From: an uncultured bacterium
GTDB taxonomy: Bacteria > Muiribacteriota > UBA6191 > CAZXTJ01 > CAYOHP01
Direction: 5' to 3'
NCBI GenBank assembly: GCA_964403795.1
Contig: CAYOHP010000017.1
Coordinates: forward strand, 1,821-65,820
Length of the DNA: 64,000 nucleotides
Shown here: positions 3,233 through 22,947 of the stretch, one piece after another
Layout of the letters: every line of letters starts with the position of its first letter
Position numbering within the stretch: position 1 is the stretch's first letter
Translations under genes and position numbers: made by a program
The notes under the pieces: model-generated
Database searches by the model: none
Seen by the model: the letters and a program-made list of their open reading frames with translations, nothing else
What the model was told of the DNA's origin: nothing

Positions 3233-3359
3233 CCCGGCCCAGGGTACCCCGGGCCATTCCCGGGCCTCCCGGGTGCGAGCGGGTCCATGGCACCCTGGGA
3301 GCGACCCGGAACGAGAGGCTCGAGTGTCCCGTCCCCCCCAGGATCCGTCGCCCCCGGCC

Positions 3360-4739
3360 ATGAGCGGGGCCCGGCTCGACGAACTCCTCGAGGACGAGGA
3401 CATGGAGACCTCCGTGACCCTGGTCCGGAAGTCGACGCCTCCGGCCACCGAGGCTCCGGTCCCGGCTCGCTCGCATCCCCCCGAACCGGCGACGCCCGTG
3501 GCGGAGGACCCGATTCCGACTCCGGTCCCGGCTCCGGCCCAGGCCGCCAGCCCGGAACCGACATCCGGATCCGCTCCCCTCCCGGAGCCCCCGAGCCCGG
3601 CTCCGCCTCCCGAGCCCGCGGCACCGCCGGCGCGGGGACCGATCCGCTCGCCGATCCCCGGCTACGAGGTCCTCGAGGAGCTGGGGCGGGGCGGCATGGC
3701 GATGGTCTTCCGGGCCCGTCAGACTTCGCTCGACCGGCAGGTAGCGCTGAAGGTGCTCTCCCCGCTGCTGGGGGAGGACGAACCCTTCGTCCGCCGATTC
3801 GAGCGGGAGGCGAAGATCCTGGCGGCCCTCGACCACAAGAACGTGGTCCGGGTCTTCGACCGGGGTCGCACCGGTGACCGCTGCTTCTATGCCATGGAAC
3901 TGGTCGACGGTCGGAGCCTGCGGGAGATCCTCGACTCGCGTCAGGGGCCGCTGCCCCCGGCCGAGGCCCTCGGCCTGATGCTGCAGCTCGCCGAGGCCCT
4001 GGCCTACGTCCACTCCCAAGGCGCGCTCCACCGGGACGTGAAGCCCGCCAACCTGCTGGTCACCGAGGACGGGATCGCCAAGCTCGCCGACTTCGGCCTG
4101 GTGGTCGATTCCGACCGGCTCCGCGACAACCTCACCCGCACCGGGGTCGGACTCGGCACCCTCGACTACATGCCGATCGAACAGCGGCAGGACGCCCGCT
4201 CGGTGGACCAGCGGGCCGACGTGTACGCCTTCGGGGTGACCCTGTACGAGACCCTGGTCGGCCACGTCCCTTCGATCGAGTACGCGGCCCCCAGCCGGAA
4301 GATCGAGGGCCTCGACCCGCGGCTCGACACCCTGCTGGACGGATGCCTGGCGATGCGTCCGGAGAACCGCCTGCCTTCGATGGAGCCGGTCCTCGCGGTG
4401 CTGCGGGACCTCGTCCGGTCGCCGGAGGCGGGCCGAGCGGCGCAGGGCAAGGAGCCCGAACCCACCCTGCACATTCCCCTGATCGAAGCCCAGGGAGGTC
4501 TCGAGGGGCCGGGCAAGGCTGGCAGCCTTCCCCCTGCCCGGAACCCGTCCTCACCGCCGGTCCGGCAGGCGGAGACGAAGCCCGCACCCGCGGCGCCTCG
4601 CGCCGAGAACCGGCTCCGCAAGGGGATCGACGAGCCCGCACCGGCAGTGCCTCGAGCATCCGGCAGCATCCAGGGATTGGCAGTGGCCCTGGTGTCGATC
4701 GTGTTGGCCCTGGTCGGGTTCCTGCTGGTCGGACGCTGA
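3360..4739 (+). CDS. Ser/Thr protein kinase, C-terminally membrane-anchored
   Basis: Internal ATG (MSGARLDELLED...) in frame with ORF 2718..4739. Kinase motifs GRGGMAMVFRA, ALKVL, HRDVKPANLLV, DFGL, then a Pro-rich linker and a single C-terminal TM helix (LAVALVSIVLALVGFLLVGR). Divergent from tatD. Confidence 0.8.
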   Translation: MSGARLDELLEDEDMETSVTLVRKSTPPATEAPVPARSHPPEPATPVAEDPIPTPVPAPAQAASPEPTSGSAPLPEPPSPAPPPEPAAPPARGPIRSPIPGYEVLEELGRGGMAMVFRARQTSLDRQVALKVLSPLLGEDEPFVRRFEREAKILAALDHKNVVRVFDRGRTGDRCFYAMELVDGRSLREILDSRQGPLPPAEALGLMLQLAEALAYVHSQGALHRDVKPANLLVTEDGIAKLADFGLVVDSDRLRDNLTRTGVGLGTLDYMPIEQRQDARSVDQRADVYAFGVTLYETLVGHVPSIEYAAPSRKIEGLDPRLDTLLDGCLAMRPENRLPSMEPVLAVLRDLVRSPEAGRAAQGKEPEPTLHIPLIEAQGGLEGPGKAGSLPPARNPSSPPVRQAETKPAPAAPRAENRLRKGIDEPAPAVPRASGSIQGLAVALVSIVLALVGFLLVGR

Positions 4740-4794: not shown

Positions 4795-6531
4795 CTACTT
4801 CAAGTAGGTGTCGAGGAACGTGATGGTGGCCGCCACCTCGTCCGCCATGAACTTCTCGTCGGGCTCGTGGGCGAGATCCGGGTAGATCTTGATGTCCACC
4901 GTGACCCCGGCGCCCTTCAGCTTGTCGCCGTAGGTCGTGCTCTGCTGGTAGGGGACCACCGGATCCTGCTGTCCGTGGCGGATCAGGTGCGGGGGATCGC
5001 CGCCGTCGACGTAGTCGAAGGGCGAGATGGCTCCCTGGCTCTGGAGGAACTGGGAGGCCAGGTCGGGGGGGAAGCCGCCGCCGCCCCGGTGCTCGGTGAA
5101 GGTGGCGAAGTTGGTCGGTCCGGCCCAGTCGACCACCGCCTGCACCGCAGGCGAGGTCCCGCTGCCGCCGCCCTCGCTGCCGAGCTTGCCCACGTTGCCG
5201 GTGGAGCCGACCGTGGCCGAGAGGTAGCCTCCGGCCGAGGCGCCCACCGCCGCGAACTTGGCGGCATCGAGGTTCCACTTGCCGGCGTTGTCCTTGAGCC
5301 AGCGCACCGCCTTGCGGGCGTCATAGGCAGCCTTGGCGATCTCGGCGACCTTCTCGATCGGGTTCGAGCCGCCCAGGGCGTCGCCGGCCAGCAGGTAGTA
5401 GTTGGCGCTGGCCAGGGCGTAGCCCTTTTCGAGCACCGGGAAGAAGGTCTTCACGTCCTTCTTGTCGCCCCGGTAGAAGCCGCCTCCGTGGAAGAACACG
5501 ATCACCGGGATGGGACCGGCCGGAGGGGTCGAGGGAAGGTAGAGGTCGAGGACCTGGCGGGCGTGGTCGGTGCCGTACTTGAGGTCGGCCCGATCGCCCA
5601 GGCTGGCGGCGGGATCGCTGGCCGGCGGGGTGGTCGGAGGCGGGGTGGTCCCGTCGGGGTTGGTCAGGTCCGGGACGTTCTCGCCACCGCCCGAGGGCGG
5701 GGGTGCATCGCCCTGGGGATCGCCCGATCCTGATCCGGTTCCCGGGGTGCCCTGCCCGTCGGTACCAGTACCGGTACCGGTACCGGTTCCCGTTCCGTCC
5801 CCCTCAGGCCTCGGATTGGAGGCAGAGCCCGGATCTCCAGCCCCTCCGCCCGAAGTCGATCCACCGTTGGCTCCGGCCGCGGCCGCGGCGGCCGCCTTGG
5901 CAGCCTCGTCGGCCGCTCGCTGGGCCGCCTGGACCCGCTCGACCTCCTGGGCCGCGATCGTGGAGGCGGAGCCGGGATCGCCCGCCACCAGCAGGCCCGC
6001 CTCGGCACCGTGGGCGACCATGTAGGCGATGGCGGACGCCGGGACCGAGTCGGCCCGGCTCGAACGCACCATCTGGGTGCCGGGTTCGAGGCTGACGACG
6101 TGACCCGAGTCGTCCCACTGCGTCCCCCGGGACGCTTCCTCGGCCTTCCAGGCATCCCAGAGGGCCCGGAGCGGTCCGGTCACGGCCGCCCAGTTGGAGG
6201 CATCGTGGACCGGTCGGACCGTGGTCCCCGGATCCGCCGAGCCCGGGGTGGTGGAACCCGGGCCCGGTCCCGAGGCGGGGACGGAGGAGGTCGGCTGGGG
6301 TGACGCCACCGGTGACGGGGTCGGGGAAGGCGTGGGGGCCACCGTGGTGGGCGTGGAGGACGTGGGGGCGCCGCCGCTCGACTCGGGCGAAGGGGTGGGA
6401 TTGGGCGTCTGGGCCCAGAGGGAGGCGCCAGGCAGCGCCAGGAGCAGGATTCCGAGCCCCAGGAGCCCGGGGAGTCCCGGGATGAAACCGCTCGCGCCGC
6501 GACCGTTCATGACCCTCCGACCGCTCTCCAC
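4795..6531 (-). CDS. Secreted alpha/beta-hydrolase (fold-3 esterase/lipase-like) with Pro/Thr/Ser-rich linker
   Basis: Signal peptide (GFIPGLPGLLGLGILLLALPGASLWAQ). Long PT/S-rich low-complexity region including a (GT)n repeat. C-terminal catalytic domain with HGGGF oxyanion motif, GASAGG (GxSxG) nucleophile, and later Asp/His. Confidence 0.75.
   Translation of the reverse strand: MESGRRVMNGRGASGFIPGLPGLLGLGILLLALPGASLWAQTPNPTPSPESSGGAPTSSTPTTVAPTPSPTPSPVASPQPTSSVPASGPGPGSTTPGSADPGTTVRPVHDASNWAAVTGPLRALWDAWKAEEASRGTQWDDSGHVVSLEPGTQMVRSSRADSVPASAIAYMVAHGAEAGLLVAGDPGSASTIAAQEVERVQAAQRAADEAAKAAAAAAAGANGGSTSGGGAGDPGSASNPRPEGDGTGTGTGTGTGTDGQGTPGTGSGSGDPQGDAPPPSGGGENVPDLTNPDGTTPPPTTPPASDPAASLGDRADLKYGTDHARQVLDLYLPSTPPAGPIPVIVFFHGGGFYRGDKKDVKTFFPVLEKGYALASANYYLLAGDALGGSNPIEKVAEIAKAAYDARKAVRWLKDNAGKWNLDAAKFAAVGASAGGYLSATVGSTGNVGKLGSEGGGSGTSPAVQAVVDWAGPTNFATFTEHRGGGGFPPDLASQFLQSQGAISPFDYVDGGDPPHLIRHGQQDPVVPYQQSTTYGDKLKGAGVTVDIKIYPDLAHEPDEKFMADEVAATITFLDTYLK
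5761..5790. repeat. Imperfect (GGTACC)5 hexanucleotide microsatellite inside the esterase linker (encodes GTGTGTGTGT)
   Basis: ggtaccagtaccggtaccggtaccggttcc. Contains three KpnI/Acc65I sites. Confidence 0.7.
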
Positions 6532-6571
6532 ATGGTAAGGACGTCGGATCGGGACGGAAGGATAGATCGCT

Positions 6572-7072
6572 TCAGACCAGGACCTTCAGATAGGTCACCT
6601 TGCCGTCCCCCGGCGCATAGTAGTCGACCAGGTGGGCTGCCTCGGAGTAACCGGCCCGGAGATAGAACTGGCGGGTGGAGAGGTACTGGGGTCGACCCGC
6701 GGTGTCGGCGTAGAGGCGGGTTCCTCCCCGGCGCCGGACGTCCTCCTCGACCGCCGCCACGATCCGCTTGCCGAGGCCGGTACCCCGCCGCGAGTCGTCG
6801 ACCACGATCCAGTAGAGGTCCCAGCTCGACTGCGTGGCCGGGACGGGGCCATAGCAGGCATAGCCGACGGTTCCGGTCTCGTCCTCCGCCATCAGGAACC
6901 AGTAGCCGCTCGCCTCCTCCCCGGTGCGCAACGCGGTCTCGGCCAGCTCCAGCGCGATCCCGACCTCCTCGGGGGAGAAGTAGCCGCTCGACTCGACCAG
7001 CCGGCGCAGCGGTCCCAGGTCCCGGGTCTCGACACCTCTCCGGATCCTCAGCTCGCCGGGCACGTCCGCCAT
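6572..7072 (-). CDS. GNAT-family N-acetyltransferase (candidate beta-lysine acetyltransferase)
   Basis: Internal start MADVPGELRIRRG. GNAT core (YWIVVDDSRRGTGLGKRIVAAVEED...LYADTAG). Last gene of the kamA-ddl-ddl operon. The upstream part of the 368-aa ORF is out-of-frame overlap junk. Confidence 0.7.
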   Translation of the reverse strand: MADVPGELRIRRGVETRDLGPLRRLVESSGYFSPEEVGIALELAETALRTGEEASGYWFLMAEDETGTVGYACYGPVPATQSSWDLYWIVVDDSRRGTGLGKRIVAAVEEDVRRRGGTRLYADTAGRPQYLSTRQFYLRAGYSEAAHLVDYYAPGDGKVTYLKVLV

Positions 7073-8043
7073 CCTTCCGCGGCTCCGCCCGGAGCGGTCG
7101 CCGCCTCCACGATCCGACCCACCGCATCCCGGTACGGGATTCCCGCCCTCTCCAGGGCCGCCGCGAACCCGGCATCGGGGGAGAGACAGGGGTTGGTGTT
7201 CAGTTCCAGCACCCACGGGTTCCCCGCCTCGTCCACCCGGAAGTCGACCCGCACGTAGCCGCCCGCCCCGAAGGCCGTCCAGGTCTTCCGGGCCAGCTCG
7301 GCCACCCGGACCAGGAGGGGATGGTCCGCCGACTCCCGGGGAGGCACCCGACAGGTCCGCTGGTACTCGGGGCTGTCCGGATCCCACTTGGCCTTGTAGT
7401 CGACGATCCGGGGTTCTCCCGGTGCGAAGTCCTCGAAGGCGATCTCGGCGATCGGGAGGACCTCGGGACCGGCCGGACCCGCCAACACCGCCACGTTGAA
7501 CTCCCGCCCCTCGATATAGGCCTCGGCCAGGAACTCGCCCCCGAACCGCGCCTCCCGATCGGCCAGGGTCCCCGGCACGTCCCCGGCCTCGACCACCGAC
7601 CCGGCGTCGAGCCCGATCGAGGCATGCTCCCAGACCGATTTCACGATGAAGCGGCCGTCCCGGGTCCCCGGCGTCCACGGCCTGGGGGTCGGGATCCCGG
7701 AGGCCTGCATCCAGCGCTTCGCCAGGCGCTTGTTGGCGGAGAGGAAGGTGGCCTCCGACCCGGAGCCGGTGAACGGCACCCCCAGGCTCTCGAGCACACC
7801 CGGGACCAGGTGGACCAGGGACCCCTTCCCGGAGAGCGACTCCACCAGGTTGAAGACCAGATCGGGTCGGTCCTCCCGCAGCCTGGCGGCGAGCGCTCCC
7901 AGGTCGAGGTCGCAGGGCAGGGCTTCGATCTCCCAGCCGGAGGCGGAGAGGGCTTCGCCCACCGCCTCCACCTGGTCGAGGACGTCGGCCTCGTCGGGGC
8001 TGGCGCCGGCGGCGATCGCCTGATGGGTCAGGAAGCAGCGCAT
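7048..8043 (-). CDS. D-alanine--D-alanine ligase-family ATP-grasp enzyme (paralog 2)
   Basis: Internal start MRCFLTHQ. ATP-grasp and Ddl-like C-terminus (EFNVAVL..., VLELNTNPCLSPDAGFAAALERAGIPY). Overlaps both neighbouring genes, which suggests translational coupling. Confidence 0.7.
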   Translation of the reverse strand: MRCFLTHQAIAAGASPDEADVLDQVEAVGEALSASGWEIEALPCDLDLGALAARLREDRPDLVFNLVESLSGKGSLVHLVPGVLESLGVPFTGSGSEATFLSANKRLAKRWMQASGIPTPRPWTPGTRDGRFIVKSVWEHASIGLDAGSVVEAGDVPGTLADREARFGGEFLAEAYIEGREFNVAVLAGPAGPEVLPIAEIAFEDFAPGEPRIVDYKAKWDPDSPEYQRTCRVPPRESADHPLLVRVAELARKTWTAFGAGGYVRVDFRVDEAGNPWVLELNTNPCLSPDAGFAAALERAGIPYRDAVGRIVEAATAPGGAAEGWRTCPAS

Positions 8044-9041
8044 GCCGAGGTCCGGCACGACCCGTGGGAGCGGACCCTCCGGGCCGCGCTCTCGACGATG
8101 CGACGGATCAGCTCCGGGTACTCCATCCCGGCCAGCCGGGCCAGGATCGAGAGGTCGCTGATGGTGGGGTTCAGCCCTGCCAGGGGATTGGCCTCGATGA
8201 ACGAGGGCTGCCCCCGGTCGTCGCTGCGGACGTCGACCCTGCCCCCGTCCCGGCAGTCGAGCAGGCGGTAGCTCCGCAGCGCCACGTCGGCGGCCTCCAT
8301 GGCCTCGGCGTCGCGGGCCAGCTTGTACTCGACCCGACCCTCGAAGCTCTGCTTGTTCTCGTAGGTATAGCCCTCGGCTTCCGCCTTGCCGGTGAGGGAC
8401 ACCTCGAGGACTCCCACCACCTCGGCCCGGTCGCCGGTGCCGACGATCCCGACCGTGAACTCGCGCCCGGGCAGATAGCGCTCCACCAGCACCGGCTGGC
8501 GGTAGGTGGCGAGGAGATCCTGGACCACCGGCGCCAGGCCGCTCCTCTCCTTGATCAGGGACCGGGCCGAGACCCCCCGGCTGGTCCCCTCGGCCACCGG
8601 CTTCACGAACAGCGGACACGGGAGGTCGATCCGGGCCAGGTCCTCCATGCGGGCGACCAGGCCGAAGGCCGCGGTCGGCACTCCCCCGGCCGCCACCACA
8701 TGCTTGGCGAGCCGCTTGTCGAGGCAGATCGCCAGGGCCAGGGGGTCGGCGAAGGTGTAGGGGATCTCGTAGACGTCGAGGATCGCCGGCACCTGGGACT
8801 CCCGGGCCGCGCCCTCGAGTCCTTCGGCGATGTTGAAGACGAGGTCCCAGCGCTCGCCGGCGGCCAGCCGGGAGACGAGCGCCGGAGCCCGCCCGATCCG
8901 CACCACCTCATGGCCGAGCGACTCGAGAGCCCCGGCGATCCCGTCGATGGTGTCCTCGCGGTCGAACTCGGCGATCCGCTCCTCGTCGAACCCGAGCGCC
9001 CGGTACTCGCTCTTCAGGTCGTAGGTGAACCCGATCCGCAT
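8028..9041 (-). CDS. D-alanine--D-alanine ligase-family ATP-grasp enzyme (paralog 1)
   Basis: 337 aa. MRIGFTYDLKSEY N-terminus. ATP-grasp motifs (NKRLAKHVVAAGGVPTAAF, EFTVGIVGTG, FIEANPLAGLNPTISDLSILARLAGMEYPELI). Confidence 0.75.
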   Translation of the reverse strand: MRIGFTYDLKSEYRALGFDEERIAEFDREDTIDGIAGALESLGHEVVRIGRAPALVSRLAAGERWDLVFNIAEGLEGAARESQVPAILDVYEIPYTFADPLALAICLDKRLAKHVVAAGGVPTAAFGLVARMEDLARIDLPCPLFVKPVAEGTSRGVSARSLIKERSGLAPVVQDLLATYRQPVLVERYLPGREFTVGIVGTGDRAEVVGVLEVSLTGKAEAEGYTYENKQSFEGRVEYKLARDAEAMEAADVALRSYRLLDCRDGGRVDVRSDDRGQPSFIEANPLAGLNPTISDLSILARLAGMEYPELIRRIVESAARRVRSHGSCRTSACAAS

Positions 9042-9066
9042 GGCAGGCCTCCCGATGGGGTCCGGA

Positions 9067-10455
9067 TCAGACGTCGAGCGGGGCCTCGGCGACCGGGTCC
9101 CGGTAGCGGTAGGTGTTGCCCTCGAAGTTCCGGAGCACCCAGTCGTCCCCGTCGCGGCCTTCGACGTAGCGGGGCTGGACCGGGATCTTGCCGCCGCCGC
9201 CGGGGGCGTCGACCGCGTAGGTCCAGACCGCGTACCCGGTGGTGTGGCCCCGGAGCCCCTCGATGATCTCGAGCCCCTTGGAGACCGAGGTCCGGAAGTG
9301 GGCCGACCCGGTGATCGGATCGCACTGGTAGAGGTAGTAGGGACGGACCCGCATCAGGAGCAGCTTGTGGCTGAGCAGCTTGATGGTCTCGACGTCGTCG
9401 TTGACGCCCTTCAGGAGCACCGCATGGGCCCCCATGGGGATCCCGGCGTCGGCGAGCATCTGGCAGGCCCGGAACGACTCGGGGGTGCACTCCTCGGGAT
9501 GGAGGTAGTGGACGCTCATCCACAGCGGATGGTGCTTCCGCAGCATGGCCACCAGCTCGGGGGTGATCCGCTGCGGAAGGACCGCAGGCATCTTGGTGCC
9601 GATGCGGACGAACTCGACGTGCGGGATGGAGCGCAGCTCGGTGAGGATCCAGTCGAGCTTGTCGTCGGACAGCGAGAGCGGGTCGCCGCCCGAGAGCAGC
9701 ACGTCCCGGATGGTCGGGGTGTTGCGGATGTAGTCGATGGCCTTGGAGAGGCGGTCCTTGCTGGCGCTCATCTCGCCCTGGCCGACCACCCGGGAGCGGG
9801 TGCAGTAGCGGCAGTAGGTGCTGCAGAAGTCGAGCACCAGGAAGAGCACCCGGTCGGGGTAGCGATGGACGATTCCATCCACCGGGCTGTCATGGTCCTC
9901 GGAGAGCGGGTCGATGCTCTCGCCGGCCGCATGCAGGAACTCGCCGGTGGAAGGCACCACGGTGCGCCGGATTGGGTGGGCAGGATCCTCGGGGTCCAGC
10001 AGGCTCATGTAATAGGGGGTGATGGCGACCGGGAGATTGGTGGCGCCGCGCTCGGCGGCGGACCGTTCGTCCGGTGAGAGGGTCAGCGCGGCTTCGAGCT
10101 GTTCGAGGCGCTGGTAGCGGTTGCGGACCTGCCACTTCCAGTCGTTCCAGGTGGCATCGTCGACCTGGGGGAAGTGCCGCTGGCGGAATCGCCGGGTCCG
10201 CTCGGTGGTGTCGGCCCTCAGCTCCTGGAGGAGGGGAACCGTCCGTCGGTGGGTAGGGCGGAGAGGGGTGGGAGTCGCCCCGCTGGTGCGGGGCTCGGGA
10301 GCCGGAGGCTCGGTCTCCTCGACGGAACGGGACTTCTGGGGGGCAGCGACATCGGCGGGGGATGGCACCTTGGACGCTCCAAAGATCGAGAGCTCCGCAT
10401 CCGGCGGAGGCGTTTTCGCGACGAGCATTTCGTCGGGTGCGGGAGTTTGTGTCAT
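9067..10455 (-). CDS. kamA: L-lysine 2,3-aminomutase (radical SAM, PLP-dependent) with ~100-aa Pro/Ala-rich N-terminal extension
   Basis: Near-colinear similarity to the recalled Clostridium KamA sequence: WNDWKWQVRNR, ITPYYMSLLDPEDPAHPIRR, DSPVDGIVHRYPDRVLFLVLDFCSTYCRYCTRSR (CxxxCxxC), DVLLSGGDPL, VLPQRITPELVAMLRKHHPLWMSVH, RPYYLYQCD, DAPGGGGK. Confidence 0.9.
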   Translation of the reverse strand: MTQTPAPDEMLVAKTPPPDAELSIFGASKVPSPADVAAPQKSRSVEETEPPAPEPRTSGATPTPLRPTHRRTVPLLQELRADTTERTRRFRQRHFPQVDDATWNDWKWQVRNRYQRLEQLEAALTLSPDERSAAERGATNLPVAITPYYMSLLDPEDPAHPIRRTVVPSTGEFLHAAGESIDPLSEDHDSPVDGIVHRYPDRVLFLVLDFCSTYCRYCTRSRVVGQGEMSASKDRLSKAIDYIRNTPTIRDVLLSGGDPLSLSDDKLDWILTELRSIPHVEFVRIGTKMPAVLPQRITPELVAMLRKHHPLWMSVHYLHPEECTPESFRACQMLADAGIPMGAHAVLLKGVNDDVETIKLLSHKLLLMRVRPYYLYQCDPITGSAHFRTSVSKGLEIIEGLRGHTTGYAVWTYAVDAPGGGGKIPVQPRYVEGRDGDDWVLRNFEGNTYRYRDPVAEAPLDV

Positions 10456-10506
10456 GCATTCGCGACTGTCAACACCCTACGGGACGGAATTCGTGCGATT
10501 AGTCGT

Positions 10507-12864
10507 TCAGCGCGCCCAGGCGCGAAAGCGCGCCAGCTCCTCGGGGGTGAATCCGTGGTCGAGGTTGCGGGCATCGGCCGCGAACCCCAGGAGCCTGGAC
10601 GCAAGTTCGGCGCGCGACGCCGGACGCAGCGTCTCGATCCGGTCCAGCCTCTCCAGGACCGCTGGGCGCAGACCTCGGGTGTCCCGTTCGGCAGCCATCC
10701 GGTGCAGCCGCCGGAGCAGGGCGAGTTCCGAGAGAAGGTCGTCGAGCTCCCCAGGTCGGGACCCGGTAACCCGATCCCAGATCGAGATCTCCCGGGAGTA
10801 CAACCCTTCGAGGTCCAGGGAATCGCGCAGCCAGGCGGTCTCGCTCCGATCCCGAAGGCACATGCGCCGGACCCAGAGTTGCATGGCGATGGTTTCGGCT
10901 TCGCGGCAGGCTCCGAGGCGGCCCGCGAGGTGAGGACCCAGGAGGGTGTCGGGATCCACCGTGGCGAAGGCCCCGAACCAGCCCTCGGGGAGCTGTTCGT
11001 GAGCCACCATCCACAGCGCCACGGTACGCTCCATGTCCGGCTCCCCGGCCCGTAGTCCGGCTCCCAGGGCCACCACGGTCCGGACCTGCGCCCGGTGGGC
11101 GACGGCCAGGTCGGCGGCCGCCCGGGCCCGCCACTCGGGGGCCCGGGCCGCGATCGAGAGGGCCCGGAGCAGCTCCCGGGCCCCGGACTCGCTGAAGGAG
11201 AGCAGCCGGCCGGTTCCCTCCGGAAACCATCGTGCGGGATCGGCCGCGATCCTGGCCTCGACGGCCTCGACCTCGACCCGGATCGTCTCGAGCTCCTCCA
11301 CCACCCGCCCGGACCATCCCGCGAAGGGCCGGTCAAGGTCGAGGACACGGCCCCGCACCGACTTCCGGAGGGCTCGAGCCAGGCCTTCCCCCACCCGGAT
11401 CGGGGCCGGAGCGGGCCCCGCCGCGGCGAGGATCCCGGCCAGCGAGGGGAGACCCTCTCCGACCAGCCTCCGGTCCAGCTCTTCGACCTCCTTCCGGGGG
11501 GAAGGAACCGGACGGGCCGTCGCCGCCCAGCCGACGTACTCGGCCAGGGCCGGCAGCCGGGAGACCGTGAACCCGAAACGCAGGGGATCGGGATCGAGGA
11601 GCGGCGGATCCCGATCGTCCTCCCGGTCGGTGGAAGGCTGGTAGACCCGGCCCGTCCCATCGATCCGCGAGGCCTGGGCCCGGTCGAGGTCTTCCGCCAG
11701 CCGCTCCGCCAGGCCCGGGGGAAGGCCGCCCGCGCGCCCCTGGGCGGCCTCCGGTGGCGGCCTCGTCGGCCCCTCCGGTACGGGGTGGTTCGGCGCCTTC
11801 GGGGAACCCGGGGTCCGGACCAGGGCCAGGGCAGCAAGCGCACCTCCGACCGCGACCAGCACCATCGAGAAGCCGAGGCGCCTCCGGTGGGCAGCCCGCC
11901 GACCCGAGGAGCCGGTGCCCCGGCCCCGGGGAGGCGGGGCGGGCAGCTTGGGAGGCGTCACCCGCTCGGGACGGGTCTGACCGGGGGTCAGCATGGTCCG
12001 GCCCGGGTCGTCCCGAGGGGCAGCTACCGGGGTGGGAAGAGGCGGGACCGAAACCAGGGCAGCCTCGAGGCTCGCTGCGAACGAAGCACCGGACTCGGGG
12101 CGCCGGGCCGGGTCACGGGCCAGGGCCCGGGCCAGCAGGGCGTCGAGCGGGCCCGGGAGACCCGGCCGCAGCCGGGAGGCGGGAGCCGGGTCCGTCCGCA
12201 GCATCTCCTCCAGGGTCTCGTCGGGCGGACCCAGCCGGGGCGGGCGCCCGGTCAGCATCTCGTAGGCGACCGCCCCCAGCGCATGGAGGTCGCAGGCCCG
12301 GGTCGCCCTCCCTCCACCCAGGTACTCCGGCGCCATGTAGGCGGGAGTACCCAGGATCCAGCCTTCCTCCGTGAGGGTTCCACCCTGCTCCGGCCGGGCC
12401 AGACCGAAGTCGAGCAGACGGAGGCTGCCGTCCCGCTCGACCATGACGTTGGCCGGCTTCAGGTCCCGGTGGACCAGGCCGGCGGCGTGGAGGGCGTCCA
12501 GCCCCTCGCCCAGATCGCGGCACCAGGCCACCACCCGACCGAAGTCGGGAAGACCCCGGGCGAGCACCTCTTCGAGCGGCCATCCCGACACGAACTCGTA
12601 GACCAGGGCCAGGTCCCCGGAACGCCTGCGGAACAGACCCAGGAACCGGACCAGTCTCGGGTGGCGGATCGCGGCGAGGAGCTCGGCTTCGCGCCCGATC
12701 CGCGCCGCCTGTTCGGGGGAGACCTCGTGGGGGATCTTGACGGCCACCGGAGCGCCCGTGTCCCGGAGCAAGCCCCGGAAGACCGCGCCGAAGGCACCGC
12801 GACCGACCTCGGCCTCGACCCGGCAGGCCTCCTCGAGGAGCGGGAGACTTCCCGCCGTGGACAT
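10507..12864 (-). CDS. Ser/Thr protein kinase with TM segment and large C-terminal domain
   Basis: Internal start MSTAGSLPLLEEA (M354 of the 1138-aa ORF, in frame). Motifs GRGAFGAVFRG, AVKI, HRDLKPANVMV, DFGL, GTPAYMAPE. A TM helix (MVLVAVGGALAALALV) precedes a ~400-aa domain. The upstream ORF portion is Arg/Gly/Pro junk. Confidence 0.8.
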   Translation of the reverse strand: MSTAGSLPLLEEACRVEAEVGRGAFGAVFRGLLRDTGAPVAVKIPHEVSPEQAARIGREAELLAAIRHPRLVRFLGLFRRRSGDLALVYEFVSGWPLEEVLARGLPDFGRVVAWCRDLGEGLDALHAAGLVHRDLKPANVMVERDGSLRLLDFGLARPEQGGTLTEEGWILGTPAYMAPEYLGGGRATRACDLHALGAVAYEMLTGRPPRLGPPDETLEEMLRTDPAPASRLRPGLPGPLDALLARALARDPARRPESGASFAASLEAALVSVPPLPTPVAAPRDDPGRTMLTPGQTRPERVTPPKLPAPPPRGRGTGSSGRRAAHRRRLGFSMVLVAVGGALAALALVRTPGSPKAPNHPVPEGPTRPPPEAAQGRAGGLPPGLAERLAEDLDRAQASRIDGTGRVYQPSTDREDDRDPPLLDPDPLRFGFTVSRLPALAEYVGWAATARPVPSPRKEVEELDRRLVGEGLPSLAGILAAAGPAPAPIRVGEGLARALRKSVRGRVLDLDRPFAGWSGRVVEELETIRVEVEAVEARIAADPARWFPEGTGRLLSFSESGARELLRALSIAARAPEWRARAAADLAVAHRAQVRTVVALGAGLRAGEPDMERTVALWMVAHEQLPEGWFGAFATVDPDTLLGPHLAGRLGACREAETIAMQLWVRRMCLRDRSETAWLRDSLDLEGLYSREISIWDRVTGSRPGELDDLLSELALLRRLHRMAAERDTRGLRPAVLERLDRIETLRPASRAELASRLLGFAADARNLDHGFTPEELARFRAWAR

Positions 12865-12950
12865 CCCGGCCCTCCCGTCCCTCCCCGCAGTGTGGCTCCC
12901 GGAGGGCGGTGGACGCCAGCGGCGGAAGCGCTCCCGGGAACCGCGGCCGG

Positions 12951-13871
12951 TCAGCCGCCCGATTCCGGGATCCAGCCGGCGAGCGGTTCCCGGTGGGCCA
13001 GCCAGGCCGGGGAGGGAGGTTGGAAGGCGGCCAGGATCCCGCCCACGATGGCGGTCGTGGTGTCCCGGTCGCCCCAGGCCGAGACCATGGTCCAGAGGCC
13101 GTCCTCGAGCGTCCCGGCGTGGCGATGGGCGACCCAGAGCGTGATCGGAACGGTATCGGCAGCCGAGATCCGTTCTCCGTTCCCGAGCCGGGCGACCGCC
13201 GAGGCCACCGGTGCGTCGCGGGGAACGGTAGCGGCGCGGGCGATCCCGTCCCGGACCTCTCCGGGAGGTACCCGGGCCAGGACCTCGGGGAAGAGCCGAG
13301 CCCGGAAGGCCTCGGGATCCTCCCGGCACTGCCAGGCGAGGGCGGTGGCCACGGCCGCGGCGATGGCCCCGGCCACGCCCTCGGGGTGGGCGTGGGTCAC
13401 CCGGGCGCTGGCCTCGGCCTCCGGGACCAGGCGATCCAGGTCGTCGCAGAAGTAGGCGCCGAGCGGGGCCACCCGCATCGCCCCTCCGTTTCCGTAGGAG
13501 CCTCCCCCGCGGAACAGTCCGGTCGAGTGGCGGCGCCAGTCGCCGGACACGGCCACCGCCTGGAGGACCTGGTGGGCACCGGACCCGTAGCCGCGGGCGG
13601 GATCCCGCCGGTAGATGCGCACGAAGCGGTCGGCGAGTTCGTCGGGATCGATCCTTCCCTTCGCGGCCAGCACCTGGAACACGGCACAGCCCATGGCGGT
13701 GTCGTCGGTCCAGCGCCAGGTGCCTGCGGGGAGTTCCCGCCGGGCCACCCGGGCCTCGGCCTGGCCCCGATCGCCGAAGAACCGTTCGCCGAAGGCATCG
13801 CCGACCGAGAGCCCGTCCAGGGCGATCCTGGCCCTTGCCAGACGCTCGGCATGGTCGCTGGGGAGGAGCAT
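12951..13871 (-). CDS. ADP-ribosylglycohydrolase-family protein (DraG-like)
   Basis: Internal start MLLPSDHAERLARARIALDGLSVGDAFGE. DraG/ARH signatures (GTWRWTDDTAMG, GNGGAMRVAPLG). 79 bp upstream of the kinase gene on the same strand. Confidence 0.7.
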   Translation of the reverse strand: MLLPSDHAERLARARIALDGLSVGDAFGERFFGDRGQAEARVARRELPAGTWRWTDDTAMGCAVFQVLAAKGRIDPDELADRFVRIYRRDPARGYGSGAHQVLQAVAVSGDWRRHSTGLFRGGGSYGNGGAMRVAPLGAYFCDDLDRLVPEAEASARVTHAHPEGVAGAIAAAVATALAWQCREDPEAFRARLFPEVLARVPPGEVRDGIARAATVPRDAPVASAVARLGNGERISAADTVPITLWVAHRHAGTLEDGLWTMVSAWGDRDTTTAIVGGILAAFQPPSPAWLAHREPLAGWIPESGG

Positions 13872-14016
13872 CGGAGCCTCCTTCCGGTTCGGGCCTCCAG
13901 GGAGTTTCGTGTAGAGAGTACACCTAGATTGGCCCAGGGCCACTTCCTCGGGATAGTCTCTCGGTCTCCGGCCGCGCCCTTGGGGGAGGCTCCGGTCCCG
14001 AGGGAAGGAACGGTCC

Positions 14017-15984
14017 ATGATCGTCGGCGTGATCGGTTCGGGGTCGATCGGCCCGGACCTGGCTTACGGCTTCGCTTCCGCCCTGGGCCAGAAGCCCGGC
14101 GCCAAGGTCTTCCTGCATGACATCTCCCAGGCTGCACTCGACGCCGGGATGGCCAGGATCCGCGGCTACGTCCAGAAGGGCGTGGCCAAGGGCAAGCTCT
14201 CGCCGAAAGCCGCGGCCGCGGTGGAGGCCGCCCTGGTCCCCACCCTGGCGGTCGGCGATCTGGCCGGATGCGAGTACGTGCTCGAGGCCGCCAGCGAGGA
14301 CCTGGGCGTGAAGCGGAAGATCCTGGCGAGCCTCGAGGCGGTGGTCGGTCCCGACTGCCTGATCGGCTTCGCCACCTCGGGGATCCCCCGCCGACAGATC
14401 GCAGCCGGCGCCCGGAAGCCGGAACGCTGCTTCGTGAACCACCCCTTCTTCCCGGCCTGGCGCTCGCTGCCGATCGAGGTGGTGCCCTCGGGCGACGCCG
14501 CACTCGGGGCAAGGATGCTCTCGACCCTGCGCCGACTCGGGAAGGTCCCGGTGGAGACCGCCGACGTGGAGTGCTTCGCGGCCGACGACATCTTCTGCAA
14601 CTACATCTGCGAGGCGGCCCGCATCGTCGAGGAGGGGCTGGCGACCCCGGCCCAGGTCGATGCCATCGTCGACGGGGCCATCGGGGGCGGCGGACCCTTC
14701 GCGGTGATGGACGGTACCCGCGGCAACCTGCTCACGGTCCACTGCCAGGAACTGATGCGCGAGGCCTCCACCGGATCCCCCTGGTTCAAGGCCCCGGCGA
14801 TCCTCTCGAAGCAGGGCGACAAGCCATGGTTTCCCAAGGGGCAGCCCGCCGACGGCACCCATGACGCGGACTTGGCAGAGCGCGTCATGGACCGGATCCT
14901 GGCGGTGTTGCTGGGCCGCACCGGGTTCGTGGTGGACCGGGGGATCTGTGCGCCCGACGACCTCGACTGGCTGACCCGCATGGCGCTGGGGTTCAGGAAG
15001 GGCCTGCTCTCGGTGGCCGCGGAACTCGGCGCCGCCAGGGTGGCGGATCTCTGTACCCGGTATGCCGGGAACAACCCGGGGTTCGAGGTCCCGGCTTCGA
15101 TCGCCGGGCGCCGGCTCCCGGCCTTCCACCGGAACATCCGGGTGGAGAAGGACGGGGAACTCGCGGTGGTCCGGGTGTTCCGGCCCGAGGTGCGCAACGC
15201 CCTCTCCGGCGAGACCATGGCGGAGATCGACGCCGCCGTCGCCACCTTGGCCGACGACAAGAAGATCCGCGGCATCGTGCTGACGAGCACCGACGGGGCC
15301 TTGGCCGGGGCCGACATCGGGGGCCTGGCCGCCCTTCCCGACCGGGAGTCCTGCCGGCAGATGTGCCGGCGAGGCTACGCGGTGCTGGCCCGGATCGAGG
15401 GGTGCCGCAAGCCGGTGGTGGCTGCGGTCGACGGGCCGGTCCTGGGCGGGGGTGCCGAGATCTCGATGGCCTGCCACGCCCGGGTGGTGGGCAAGTCGCT
15501 GATGCTGGGCCAGCCCGAGGTGAACCTGGGGATCATCCCCGGGTACGGAGGCACCCAGCGGCTGCCTCGCCTGGTCGGGGTGGAGAGGGCATTGGACCTG
15601 CTGCGCACCGCCAGGTCGGTGGGCGCCAAGGAGGCGTGCGCCTGGGGCTGGGCCACAGGGGAACCGGTCGACGACCCGGTGGCCGCGGCCAAGGCGCTCG
15701 TAAGGGAGCACCTGGACGGCCGCGCCAAGCTGGCCCCGGTGGACCCGAGACCGGTGGCGGTCCCCGCCAAGCTCGCCGGGGTCGACCTCGGCCACCACTC
15801 GCGGGCGATCGACGCCATCCTGGTCGACGTGGTGCGCACCGGGCTGGCCCGGCACCTCGCCGACGGGCTCGAGATCGAGGCCGAGGGTTTCGCCCGCTGC
15901 AAGGACACCGTGGACATGGACATCGGGATGAAGAACTTCCTGGCGAACGGGCCGCGCGTCCCCGCGGTCTTCCTGAACGAGTAG
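14017..15984 (+). CDS. Fused 3-hydroxyacyl-CoA dehydrogenase / enoyl-CoA hydratase (HAD-ECH order)
   Basis: N-terminal NAD-binding VIGSGSIG and HAD core (NHPFFP). C-terminal crotonase fold (VVAAVDGPVLGGGAEISMACHARV, QPEVNLGIIPGYGGTQRL). Domain order is reversed relative to FadB/FadJ. Confidence 0.8.
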   Translation: MIVGVIGSGSIGPDLAYGFASALGQKPGAKVFLHDISQAALDAGMARIRGYVQKGVAKGKLSPKAAAAVEAALVPTLAVGDLAGCEYVLEAASEDLGVKRKILASLEAVVGPDCLIGFATSGIPRRQIAAGARKPERCFVNHPFFPAWRSLPIEVVPSGDAALGARMLSTLRRLGKVPVETADVECFAADDIFCNYICEAARIVEEGLATPAQVDAIVDGAIGGGGPFAVMDGTRGNLLTVHCQELMREASTGSPWFKAPAILSKQGDKPWFPKGQPADGTHDADLAERVMDRILAVLLGRTGFVVDRGICAPDDLDWLTRMALGFRKGLLSVAAELGAARVADLCTRYAGNNPGFEVPASIAGRRLPAFHRNIRVEKDGELAVVRVFRPEVRNALSGETMAEIDAAVATLADDKKIRGIVLTSTDGALAGADIGGLAALPDRESCRQMCRRGYAVLARIEGCRKPVVAAVDGPVLGGGAEISMACHARVVGKSLMLGQPEVNLGIIPGYGGTQRLPRLVGVERALDLLRTARSVGAKEACAWGWATGEPVDDPVAAAKALVREHLDGRAKLAPVDPRPVAVPAKLAGVDLGHHSRAIDAILVDVVRTGLARHLADGLEIEAEGFARCKDTVDMDIGMKNFLANGPRVPAVFLNE

Positions 15985-21597: not shown

Positions 21598-22921
<1,324 letters not shown>

Positions 22922-22947
<26 letters not shown>

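What the first reader, a model, noticed from the sequence alone, without database searches (positions are those of the whole stretch)
6572..13871. Lysine 2,3-aminomutase + two tandem D-Ala-D-Ala-ligase-like ATP-grasp enzymes + GNAT acetyltransferase: candidate novel beta-lysine peptide / compatible-solute pathway, preceded by a Ser/Thr kinase and an ADP-ribosylglycohydrolase
A genuine KamA (near-colinear with the recalled Clostridium lysine 2,3-aminomutase sequence, CxxxCxxC plus PLP region) makes beta-lysine. It is followed on the same strand, with overlapping or tightly spaced reading frames (8043/8028 and 7072/7048 overlaps), by two paralogous Ddl-family ATP-grasp ligases and a GNAT. Known KamA+GNAT pairs (archaeal ablA/ablB for N-epsilon-acetyl-beta-lysine; Bacillus kamA-yodP) contain no ATP-grasp ligases. 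Ddl-family ATP-grasp enzymes include L-amino-acid ligases (BacD-type). The gene order therefore predicts ligation of beta-lysine into a di- or tri-peptide, or onto an acceptor, followed by N-acetylation. I do not recognise such a product as described. The KamA carries an unusual ~100-aa Pro/Ala-rich N-terminal extension. A membrane Ser/Thr kinase and a DraG-like ADP-ribosylglycohydrolase lie immediately upstream in the same orientation, which hints at post-translational control.
Basis: partly seen in the sequence, partly recalled or inferred. Interest (0 to 1): 0.78.

Follow-up and report, generated by a model that had tools for sequence, protein, structure and literature searches.

The report
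Widespread uncharacterised beta-lysine ligase gene cassette
Four tightly packed genes (a lysine 2,3-aminomutase, two ligases that look like D-Ala-D-Ala ligase but are not, and an acetyltransferase) form a cassette that recurs in more than ten bacterial phyla and probably makes an undescribed small acetylated beta-lysine amide; the kinase and ADP-ribosylglycohydrolase next to it are only neighbours.

Summary
On the minus strand lie KamA (9067-10455), two Ddl-fold ATP-grasp ligases (AG1 8028-9041, AG2 7048-8043) and a 166-aa GNAT (6572-7072), with the stated overlaps.

- **KamA:** it keeps every known determinant of lysine 2,3-aminomutase.
- **Ligases:** both keep the ATP/Mg catalytic residues. 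Both score far below the Ddl cut-offs and have remodelled substrate pockets.
- **Conservation:** among 80 loci holding an AG1 relative, KamA lies upstream in 62/72, AG2 downstream in 64/74 and the GNAT in 52/64. These loci come from many phyla.
- **Fusions:** natural KamA-AG1, AG1-AG2 and AG2-GNAT fusion proteins exist.
- **Accessory gene:** about a quarter of cassettes add a GNAT fused to an acetylpolyamine-amidohydrolase-like deacetylase.
- **Neighbours:** the kinase, ADP-ribosylglycohydrolase and esterase are not conserved with the cassette.
- **N-terminal extension:** the "~100-aa" KamA extension is probably about 57 aa. It carries a conserved acidic E-P-P motif.

Best reading: a self-contained cytoplasmic pathway. 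Lysine becomes beta-lysine, two ATP-dependent amide ligations follow, and the product is N-acetylated. The product and its role are unknown; a compatible solute or a polyamine-like metabolite is a guess. I found no description of the cassette in the searchable literature.

The parts
9067..10455 (-). KamA, an L-lysine 2,3-aminomutase (radical SAM and PLP). The ORF runs from ATG 10455; the probable true start is GTG 10368, giving 433 aa.
   Evidence: Gapless alignment to 2A5H, E=2.6e-146. C211/C215/C218, R220, D379, D416 and K423 correspond to C125/C129/C132, R134, D293, D330 and K337, and are conserved in 60-61 of 62 cassette KamAs. NCBIfam: KamA family 349.7 bits against a 199.2 cut-off; AblA 503.5 against 525.4.
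10303..10320 (-). Conserved acidic E-P-P motif (EETEPP, residues 46-51) in the KamA N-terminal tail. Its function is unknown.
   Evidence: E49 is present in 53/62, P50 in 56/62 and P51 in 55/62 cassette KamAs from several phyla. The tail is absent from 2A5H.
8028..9041 (-). AG1, a Ddl-fold ATP-grasp ligase. It is the partner most tightly tied to KamA and is the presumed beta-lysine ligase.
7048..8043 (-). AG2, a second Ddl-fold ATP-grasp ligase, 28% identical to AG1. It forms a functional module with the GNAT.
6572..7072 (-). Small GNAT N-acetyltransferase. It belongs to the family of PDB 2R7H and is not AblB-type.
   Evidence: PF00583 1.3e-11. 2R7H at E=6.5e-40. 2R7H matches the cassette GNAT in 62 loci at 43-55% identity. 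No AblB-type NCBIfam hit at E<=0.01. Present in 52/64 loci with enough flank.

Best explanation
The four genes form a self-contained, horizontally widespread biosynthetic cassette for a small cytoplasmic molecule built on beta-lysine.

**Step 1 (well supported by sequence).** KamA isomerises L-lysine to (3S)-beta-lysine.

**Step 2 (inferred from linkage).** AG1 is a Ddl-fold ATP-grasp enzyme that activates a carboxylate as an acyl phosphate. It joins beta-lysine to a second amino compound through an amide bond. The invariant Asp in its second-substrate loop suggests that this partner also carries an extra ammonium group, for example lysine or another beta-lysine. The logic would be the same as PylB/PylC in pyrrolysine synthesis.

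**Step 3 (inferred).** AG2 and the GNAT work as one module. AG2 makes a second ATP-dependent amide bond, and the GNAT acetylates a free primary amine, most plausibly the epsilon-amine of a beta-lysyl unit.

**Step 4 (accessory, in about a quarter of cassettes).** A GNAT fused to an acetylpolyamine-amidohydrolase-type deacetylase removes or exchanges that acetyl group, either for turnover or as protect/deprotect chemistry.

The product is predicted to be an N-acetylated beta-lysine di- or tri-amide that stays inside the cell. Its role is my preferred guess only: a charge-balanced compatible solute, a stress metabolite or a polyamine-like molecule. The upstream kinase and ADP-ribosylglycohydrolase are not part of the system.
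For: **KamA identity.** All lysine-specific, SAM-cluster and PLP residues are conserved in the window copy and in 60-61 of 62 cassette copies.

**The ligases are active but are not Ddl.**
- K97, K144, E180, E187, K215, R255, D257, E270 and N272 are kept in both families.
- Both score far below the curated cut-offs.
- The pockets are remodelled, with invariant AG1 D296 and AG2 W220, C286 and D290.

**Linkage.**
- KamA-AG1-AG2-GNAT keeps this order with median gaps of about 50 nt. Counts are 62/72, 64/74 and 52/64, and all four genes are present in 44/59 loci with both flanks.
- The loci come from Desulfobacterota, Myxococcota, Planctomycetota, Acidobacteriota, Gamma- and Alphaproteobacteria, Bacillota, Bacteroidota, Spirochaetota, WOR-3 and Verrucomicrobiota/Kiritimatiellia.

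**Fusion proteins (Rosetta stones).**
- KamA-AG1: P0261.
- AG1-AG2: many representatives of 640-730 aa, for example P0241.
- AG2-GNAT: P0186, P0193, P0212, P0222.

**Minimal versions.** KamA+AG1-only cassettes occur in WOR-3, Bacillota, KSB3 and Kiritimatiellia. In WOR-3 a Peptidase_S58 gene sits next to them. From my own knowledge this is the DmpA/BapA family, which includes beta-aminopeptidases.

**Accessory deacetylase.** The GNAT-deacetylase fusion occurs in 21 loci. Its deacetylase half is closest to acetylpolyamine amidohydrolases (6PHR, E=7.5e-71).

**Consistent with an intracellular small molecule.**
- No transporter, NRPS/PKS, precursor peptide or target-protein gene recurs beside the cassette.
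- None of the four enzymes has a transmembrane segment.
Against: - No enzyme was assayed and no product is known. Substrate assignments for AG1, AG2 and the GNAT rest on linkage and a few residues.
- The alignment of the Ddl N-terminal Glu15 region is ambiguous. AG1 E25 and AG2 D17 may be its equivalents, so the first-substrate site cannot be read.
- Planctomycetota often have AG1-AG2-GNAT without an adjacent KamA (6-8 loci). A beta-lysine supply there is assumed, not shown.
- Carriers come from freshwater, groundwater and soil as well as marine samples. This weakens a purely osmotic role.
- Polyamine biosynthesis genes adjoin the cassette in only three related Desulfobacterota loci.
- Fusions seen in metagenome gene calls could in part be read-through artefacts, although they are numerous and have in-frame linkers.
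Confidence: 0.55

Rival explanations
1. Polyamine-conjugate variant. One or both ligases attach beta-lysine to a polyamine (putrescine, cadaverine or spermidine) or build a polyamine-like cation. Acetylation and deacetylation then regulate its charge, as with acetylpolyamines.
For: - The accessory deacetylase is closest to acetylpolyamine amidohydrolases.
- AG2 has lost the Ser281/Leu282 carboxylate clamp (A291/G292), so its nucleophile may lack an alpha-carboxylate.
- Carboxyspermidine dehydrogenase, carboxyspermidine decarboxylase, arginine decarboxylase and (in L089) an arginase-family gene lie beside the cassette in L089, L017 and L045.
Against: The polyamine-gene adjacency is confined to three Desulfobacterota loci and could be inherited synteny. 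Epsilon-acetyl-beta-lysine itself resembles acetylputrescine, so the deacetylase does not require a polyamine substrate.
Confidence: 0.15
2. Protein or peptide modification. The ligases add beta-lysine or a short tail to a protein, in the manner of EF-P beta-lysylation, RimK or LysX/LysW.
For: - ATP-grasp enzymes of other clades do modify proteins.
- N-epsilon-(beta-lysyl)-lysine is a known protein modification on EF-P (own knowledge).
Against: - No carrier-protein, target-protein or precursor-peptide gene recurs beside the cassette.
- No efp gene lies in any of 89 loci or in the window.
- KamA scores below the EpmB cut-off, 240 against 369 bits.
Confidence: 0.1
3. Exported secondary metabolite, such as an antibiotic or siderophore, or a cell-envelope building block. 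Acetylation would serve as self-protection, as with streptothricin acetyltransferases.
For: - Beta-lysine occurs in several antibiotics (streptothricin, viomycin, negamycin; own knowledge).
- Paired acetylation and deacetylation can be a pro-drug logic.
- LysE- or MarC-type exporters lie near the cassette in two loci.
Against: - No transporter, resistance, regulator, NRPS or mur gene recurs with it.
- AG1 is 52-65% identical across more than ten phyla, which fits a conserved physiological function better than a specialised antibiotic.
- No homologue was found on any of 72,556 plasmids.
Confidence: 0.1
4. Ordinary N-epsilon-acetyl-beta-lysine synthesis (an AblA/AblB equivalent), with two peptidoglycan D-Ala-D-Ala ligases lying in between by chance.
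For: KamA scores close to the AblA model (503.5 against a 525.4 cut-off), and a GNAT is present.
Against: - The ligases fail the Ddl cut-offs and lack Tyr216 and Leu282.
- They are co-conserved and fused with KamA and the GNAT.
- The GNAT gives no AblB-type hit.
- KamA+AG1 cassettes without any GNAT exist.
Confidence: 0.04

Closest known systems
[quoted passage not shown]
   Same: A lysine 2,3-aminomutase of the same subfamily (score just under the AblA cut-off) is followed in the operon by a GNAT acetyltransferase. The product is probably an acetylated beta-lysine derivative.
   Different: Two ATP-grasp ligases are interposed and are co-conserved and fused with both partners. The GNAT is a 166-aa protein of the 2R7H family with no AblB-type match. 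The product must contain at least one extra amide bond.
D-Ala-D-Ala / D-Ala-D-Lac ligases (DdlA, DdlB, VanA)
   Different: Both ligases score below all curated Ddl/Van cut-offs. Tyr216, Leu282 and, in AG2, Ser150, Gly276 and Ser281 are replaced. The genomic context is KamA and a GNAT rather than mur/ftsQ.
PylB/PylC of pyrrolysine biosynthesis (own knowledge; PylC structure 4FFL appears)
   Same: A radical-SAM enzyme rearranges lysine, and an adjacent ATP-grasp ligase couples the rearranged diamino acid to another amine (the N-epsilon of a second lysine in Pyl). This is the closest match in pathway logic to KamA+AG1.
NAGGN synthesis (Ngg bifunctional GNAT + ATP-grasp enzyme, with AsnO) for the dipeptide osmolyte N-acetylglutaminylglutamine amide (own knowledge)
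   Same: An acetyltransferase domain and an ATP-grasp ligase act together, sometimes in one polypeptide, to make an N-acetylated dipeptide that stays in the cytoplasm.
   Different: The building block differs (beta-lysine rather than glutamine). No amidotransferase partner recurs. Homology of AG2 or the GNAT to Ngg was not shown.
L-amino-acid ligases (BacD/YwfE, BL00235, RizA, TabS) and carnosine synthase
   Same: These are stand-alone ATP-grasp enzymes that make di- or oligopeptides from free amino acids. Carnosine synthase uses a beta-amino acid.
EpmA/EpmB beta-lysylation of EF-P
   Same: A KamA-family aminomutase supplies beta-lysine, which is then joined by an amide bond to a lysine epsilon-amine.
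   Different: The ligase there is a lysyl-tRNA-synthetase paralogue acting on a protein. Here KamA fails the EpmB cut-off, and no efp or epmA gene is nearby.

Membership tests
Lysine 2,3-aminomutase (KamA/AblA) | CxxxCxxC radical-SAM cluster motif | tested here: met
   C211, C215 and C218 align with C125, C129 and C132 of 2A5H. Conserved in 60/62 cassette KamAs.
Lysine 2,3-aminomutase (KamA/AblA) | PLP Schiff-base lysine (K337), plus the lysine-binding residues R134, D293 and D330 that distinguish it from glutamate and arginine 2,3-aminomutases (roles from own knowledge of the 2A5H literature) | tested here: met
   K423, R220, D379 and D416 are present and conserved in 60-61 of 62. Glu- and Arg-aminomutase models score lower and far below their cut-offs, 422/650 and 376/600.
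Lysine 2,3-aminomutase (KamA/AblA) | Curated NCBIfam score cut-offs | tested here: inconclusive
   KamA family TIGR00238: 349.7 bits, above the 199.2 cut-off (met). AblA equivalog TIGR03820: 503.5 bits, below the 525.4 cut-off (narrowly missed).
Lysine 2,3-aminomutase (KamA/AblA) | Catalytic conversion of L-lysine to beta-lysine | not testable with these tools
   Requires an anaerobic enzyme assay.
D-Ala-D-Ala / D-Ala-D-X ligase (Ddl/Van) | Curated NCBIfam cut-offs for Ddl or Van models | tested here: not met
   AG1's best score is 151.7 bits and AG2's is 129.5 bits against a 243 cut-off. All Van models are far below cut-off.
D-Ala-D-Ala / D-Ala-D-X ligase (Ddl/Van) | ATP-grasp fold with ATP/Mg residues (DdlB K97, K144, E180, E187, K215, R255, D257, E270, N272) | tested here: met
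D-Ala-D-Ala / D-Ala-D-X ligase (Ddl/Van) | D-Ala pocket residues S150, Y216, S281 and L282 (and E15) | tested here: not met
   - Y216 becomes E/A/Q in AG1 and W in AG2.
- L282 becomes D (79/79) in AG1 and G in AG2.
- S150 becomes T in AG1 and A in AG2.
- S281 is kept in AG1 only.
- The E15 position is ambiguous in the alignment; AG1 E25 and AG2 D17 are possible equivalents.
D-Ala-D-Ala / D-Ala-D-X ligase (Ddl/Van) | Cell-wall gene context (mur/ftsQ, or a van operon) | tested here: not met
   The recurrent neighbours are KamA, the paralogous ligase, the GNAT and the GNAT-deacetylase only.
AblA/AblB N-epsilon-acetyl-beta-lysine pathway | AblB-type beta-lysine acetyltransferase next to the aminomutase, in a two-gene unit | tested here: not met
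   The GNAT's NCBIfam hits at E<=0.01 are only RimI, AAC(6'), ArsN2 and PRK03624, all far below cut-off, with no AblB model. Two ligases separate KamA from the GNAT.
PylB/PylC/PylD pyrrolysine pathway | Radical-SAM lysine-rearranging enzyme adjacent to an ATP-grasp ligase | tested here: met
   KamA-AG1 adjacency in 62/72 loci, plus the fusion P0261. This is a likeness of logic only.
PylB/PylC/PylD pyrrolysine pathway | PylB-type mutase, PylC orthology, PylD dehydrogenase, pylS/pylT | tested here: not met
NAGGN-type GNAT + ATP-grasp dipeptide-osmolyte synthase | Acetyltransferase and ATP-grasp ligase coupled or fused | tested here: met
   AG2-GNAT fusions of 504-514 aa. The genes overlap by 25 nt in the window.
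NAGGN-type GNAT + ATP-grasp dipeptide-osmolyte synthase | AsnO-type amidotransferase partner; sequence homology to Ngg | tested here: inconclusive
   No amidotransferase is among the recurrent neighbours. Homology to Ngg was not tested directly.
EpmA/EpmB EF-P beta-lysylation | EpmB equivalog score; efp or epmA nearby | tested here: not met
   EpmB model 240.1 bits, below the 369.3 cut-off. No efp homologue in the window or in 89 loci.

The most novel reading that the evidence does not exclude
KamA+AG1 works like PylB+PylC. A radical-SAM lysine isomerase and an ATP-grasp ligase together make an isopeptide of beta-lysine, for example N-epsilon-(beta-lysyl)-lysine or a beta-lysyl-beta-lysine. 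AG2 and the GNAT then extend and acetylate it. This would define a previously unrecognised class of beta-lysine-derived cytoplasmic metabolites present in more than ten bacterial phyla, with its own acetylation/deacetylation cycle.
Probability: 0.45. Interest if true: 0.75.

Novelty: new variant of a known kind. Interest (0 to 1): 0.62.

Why it matters
As far as I know, beta-lysine in free-living microbes is known as the precursor of one osmolyte, as a fermentation intermediate, as an antibiotic building block and as the EF-P modification. A conserved cassette that couples beta-lysine synthesis to two dedicated amide ligases and an acetyltransferase points to a further, undescribed beta-lysine metabolite. 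It is found from sulfate reducers and syntrophs to Planctomycetota, Acidobacteriota and Bacteroidota.

Identifying the product would have three consequences:
- It would assign function to two large families now annotated as "D-alanine--D-alanine ligase" (801 clusters at 50% identity match AG1 at E<=1e-30) and correct that annotation.
- It would give a substrate to the orphan structure 2R7H.
- It would add ATP-grasp enzymes that accept a beta-amino acid to the biocatalysis toolbox.

Tried and rejected
- **Regulatory link to the kinase or ADP-ribosylglycohydrolase.** A tblastn search of both proteins against 80 loci gave no co-occurrence. One ADP-ribosylglycohydrolase lies 5.5 kb away in L088. 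Rejected.
- **Riboswitch or other cis-RNA before the cassette.** Rfam found none in the window or in 8 loci.
- **Promoter and terminator scan of 6300-14100.** Nothing was found. Only a lone TTGACA lies at 10472-10467.
- **EF-P link.** No efp gene is near any locus.
- **Plasmid carriage.** No AG1 homologue was found in PLSDB.
- **GNAT half of the GNAT-deacetylase fusion as a paralogue of the small GNAT.** No similarity was found.
- **Other recurrent neighbours (transporters, peptidases, amidotransferases).** All-against-all clustering found none beyond lineage-specific synteny. The minor accessories are a CxxCxxCC (PF03692) protein in 6 loci plus one fusion, and Peptidase_S58 in 3 WOR-3 loci.
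- **Literature.** Ten full-text searches found no paper describing KamA together with ATP-grasp or Ddl-like ligases. My first searches missed "2,3-aminomutase" because of word-start matching, so I repeated them with "3-aminomutase". The hits concerned ablA/ablB, negamycin and a Myxococcus operon of two KAM-like genes; none describes this cassette.
- **The 2009 Iyer/Aravind survey of ATP-grasp amidoligases (PMC3268129).** It may have noted this neighbourhood, but the paper is not held.
- **AFDB fold search for named cultured carriers.** The library was unavailable.

Full report
**What is in the window**

The region is about 72% G+C, so raw ORF lists are full of shadow frames. Third-position GC analysis picks one frame per stretch. 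Together with start-site inspection, it gives these minus-strand genes:

| Gene | Coordinates | Length |
|---|---|---|
| GNAT | 6572-7072 | 166 aa |
| AG2 | 7048-8043 | 331 aa |
| AG1 | 8028-9041 | 337 aa |
| KamA | 9067-10455 | 462-aa ORF |
| Ser/Thr kinase | 10507-12864 | 785 aa |
| ADP-ribosylglycohydrolase | 12951-13871 | 306 aa |

- A secreted BD-FAE esterase (4795-6531) lies downstream. A FadB-like gene and a thiolase lie beyond, on the plus strand.
- Pfam confirms every domain call.
- The identical cassette sits on two Logan metagenome contigs.
- Abundant Ser/Thr kinases, an FHA-sigma54 activator and best matches to Polyangiaceae loci suggest Myxococcota.

**KamA**

- It aligns without a gap to Clostridium subterminale lysine 2,3-aminomutase (2A5H) over 368 residues, E=2.6e-146.
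- The three cluster cysteines, the PLP lysine (K337) and the three lysine-binding residues (R134, D293, D330; roles from my knowledge of the 2A5H literature) are all present. They are conserved in 60-61 of 62 KamAs from equivalent cassettes.
- NCBIfam places it in the KamA family (349.7 bits, cut-off 199.2). It falls just under the AblA equivalog cut-off (503.5 against 525.4) and well below the glutamate, arginine and EpmB models.

The "~100-aa" N-terminal extension needs correcting:
- GC3 falls upstream of about 10350.
- In 41 of 62 aligned sequences a Met aligns at window residue 37.
- A GGAG lies 8 nt before a GTG at 10368. Starting there gives 433 aa, against a homologue median of 434.
- The real tail is about 57 aa. 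It is variable except for an acidic run ending in E-P-P, which is conserved across phyla. The function of that motif is unexplained.

**The two ligases**

- I verified my E. coli DdlB reference sequence against 2DLN/1IOV and mapped it onto 79 AG1 and 61 AG2 sequences.
- The ATP and Mg residues are retained in both families, so both should be active acyl-phosphate-forming ligases.

They are not D-Ala-D-Ala ligases:
- They score 152 and 130 bits against a 243-bit cut-off and fail every Van model.
- Tyr216 is replaced by E/A/Q in AG1 and by an invariant Trp in AG2.
- Leu282 is an invariant Asp in AG1 and a Gly in AG2.
- AG2 also replaces Ser150, Gly276 (with an invariant Cys) and Ser281, and has an invariant Asp290 in the same loop.
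- The Glu15 region aligns ambiguously. AG1 E25 and AG2 D17 are invariant and may be its equivalents.

An acidic residue in the second-substrate loop of both enzymes fits nucleophiles that carry an extra ammonium group. That is an inference. No other Ddl homologue lies in the window.

**Conservation**

- AG1 has thousands of relatives. The top 120 are 55-68% identical to it, and 801 clusters at 50% identity match at E<=1e-30.
- A scan of one genome per species returned at least 393 loci, of which the best 80 were fetched.
- Mapping the window's seven proteins onto those loci gave the following counts, each among loci with enough flank:
  - KamA lies directly upstream of AG1 in 62 of 72.
  - AG2 lies directly downstream in 64 of 74.
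  - The GNAT is present in 52 of 64.
  - All four genes are present in 44 of 59.
- Median intergenic gaps are about 50 nt.
- By record title, the carriers are Desulfobacterota (including Desulfovibrio, Desulfopila, Smithella and Syntrophaceae), Myxococcota, Bdellovibrionales, Planctomycetota, Acidobacteriota, Gamma- and Alphaproteobacteria, Bacillota, Bacteroidota, Spirochaetaceae, WOR-3, Kiritimatiellia, Verrucomicrobia and Lentisphaerae.
- Their samples are groundwater, lakes, fens, soils, bioreactors, hot springs and marine sites.
- The kinase, the ADP-ribosylglycohydrolase and the esterase accompany the cassette in none of these loci.

**Modularity and fusions**

- All-against-all clustering of neighbouring ORFs found only one further recurrent partner. 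It is a ~580-aa protein with an N-terminal GNAT and a C-terminal histone-deacetylase-family domain. It sits inside or at the end of the cassette in 21 loci from several phyla.
- Its deacetylase half is closest to bacterial acetylpolyamine amidohydrolases (6PHR, E=7.5e-71; 3Q9B).
- Its GNAT half is unrelated to the small GNAT.
- Natural fusion proteins link every adjacent pair:
  - KamA-AG1: P0261, 746 aa, with an in-frame linker.
  - AG1-AG2, in both orders: many representatives of 640-730 aa.
  - AG2-GNAT: 504-514 aa.
- Some lineages have only KamA+AG1: WOR-3, one Bacillota MAG, KSB3 and Kiritimatiellia.
- In three WOR-3 loci a Peptidase_S58 gene converges on AG1. From my knowledge, that family includes the beta-aminopeptidases DmpA and BapA.
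- A CxxCxxCC (PF03692) protein sits between KamA and AG1 in six loci and is fused to AG1 in P0250.
- The pattern defines two modules, KamA+AG1 and AG2+GNAT. AG1 is the enzyme that takes beta-lysine.

**The GNAT**

- It has no AblB-type match.
- It matches PDB 2R7H at E=6.5e-40. That entry is a structural-genomics deposit named "putative D-alanine N-acetyltransferase".
- 2R7H matches the cassette GNAT in 62 loci at 43-55% identity. It is therefore a member of this family, and its name probably reflects the misannotated Ddl neighbours.

**Mechanism**

The best-supported reading has four steps.
1. Lysine is converted to beta-lysine by KamA. This is strongly supported.
2. AG1 joins beta-lysine by an amide bond to a second amine- or carboxyl-bearing partner. 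This is inferred from linkage, fusions and the minimal cassettes.
3. AG2 makes a second amide bond and the GNAT acetylates a primary amine. This is inferred from fusions.
4. Where the accessory gene is present, an acetylpolyamine-amidohydrolase-type domain deacetylates.

Two further points bear on this reading. Epsilon-acetyl-beta-lysine has the N-C4-N skeleton of acetylputrescine, so that deacetylase family suits an epsilon-acetyl-beta-lysyl group. No transporter, NRPS/PKS, precursor-peptide, carrier-protein or target gene recurs, and all four enzymes lack transmembrane segments. This argues for a small intracellular product.

The closest pathway logic I know is PylB/PylC, a radical-SAM lysine mutase plus an ATP-grasp ligase that couples the product to the N-epsilon of a second lysine. 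The closest match in architecture for the second module is the GNAT+ATP-grasp enzyme of NAGGN synthesis. Both comparisons rest on my own knowledge and are analogies, not membership.

**Rivals**

- *Polyamine conjugate.* Polyamine biosynthesis genes are adjacent in three Desulfobacterota loci, and AG2 has lost the carboxylate clamp. This is a variant of the main reading and cannot be excluded.
- *Protein modification.* This is disfavoured by the Ddl-clade placement and by the absence of any target gene or efp.
- *Exported antibiotic or siderophore.* This is disfavoured by the absence of transport or resistance genes, by high conservation across phyla and by the absence from plasmids.
- *Plain AblA/AblB with bystander Ddl genes.* This is contradicted by the data.

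**Novelty**

- Ten literature searches and several papers read gave no description of this cassette.
- The 2009 survey of ATP-grasp amidoligases by Iyer and colleagues may have noted the neighbourhood computationally. I could not read it.
- The enzyme families are all known. The combination and the implied product are not, so I rate it a new variant of a known kind.
- The finding is not specific to this window. It is one copy of a widespread, experimentally untouched pathway whose ligases are routinely misannotated as D-alanine--D-alanine ligase.

Noticed in passing
window 10303-10320 (-), and the KamA N-termini in L003-L082: Cassette-type KamAs share a disordered N-terminal tail of about 50-60 aa. 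Its only conserved feature is an acidic run ending in E-P-P (EETEPP in the window). Two Bacillota loci (L034, L051) lack it. It may be a docking motif; no function is known.
   Followed up: partly
L045:9607-11355, L011:10049-11809 and 19 other loci: A ~580-aa fusion of a GNAT domain with an acetylpolyamine-amidohydrolase-like deacetylase is embedded in about a quarter of the cassettes. An acetyltransferase and a deacetylase in one polypeptide is unusual in itself. The window copy lacks this gene.
   Followed up: partly
L020:1636-2784, L022:8962-10230, L056:4221-5567: In WOR-3 genomes the minimal KamA+AG1 pair is followed by a convergent Peptidase_S58 gene (the DmpA/BapA family, which includes beta-aminopeptidases). 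This hints that the AG1 product has an N-terminal beta-amino acid.
   Followed up: no
L021:1646-2176, also L026, L049, L065, L086 and L087; fusion protein P0250: A CxxCxxCC (PF03692) putative Zn/Fe-binding protein lies between KamA and AG1 in six loci and is fused to AG1 in P0250. Its role is unknown.
   Followed up: no
L089:11957-16978, L017:8637-11358, L045:11366-15575: A spermidine-type polyamine gene set lies directly beside the cassette, on the opposite strand, in three Desulfobacterota loci: carboxyspermidine decarboxylase, carboxyspermidine dehydrogenase and arginine decarboxylase, plus an arginase-family gene (agmatinase-like) in L089.
   Followed up: partly
window 10507-12864 (-) and 12951-13871 (-): A membrane Ser/Thr kinase (kinase domain, one transmembrane segment at residues 331-349, then about 430 aa with no Pfam match) and an ADP-ribosylglycohydrolase lie upstream on the same strand. 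They are not conserved with the cassette. An ADP-ribosylglycohydrolase also lies 5.5 kb upstream of KamA in L088, probably by chance.
   Followed up: yes
window 4795-6531 (-): An esterase of the BD-FAE / alpha-beta-hydrolase type, with a signal-peptide-like N-terminus and a linker of about 300 aa rich in Pro, Thr, Ser and Gly, lies directly downstream of the GNAT. It is specific to this organism's locus.
   Followed up: no
L054:5596-7998: An 800-aa ORF combines a divergent KamA (47% identity) with a divergent AG1-like ligase (38%). It lies immediately upstream of a standard AG1-AG2 pair, so this may be a duplicated, fused second copy of the first module.
   Followed up: no
PDB 2R7H: The orphan structural-genomics entry "putative D-alanine N-acetyltransferase of GNAT family" belongs to this cassette's GNAT family. 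Its name probably derives from the neighbouring ligases being misannotated as Ddl.
   Followed up: partly
window 21598-22947 (+), 25972-27873 (-), 2718-4739 (+): Elsewhere in the window there are an FHA-domain sigma-54 activator, a B12-binding radical-SAM protein and a second Ser/Thr kinase. This gene content is consistent with a myxobacterium-like genome.
   Followed up: no
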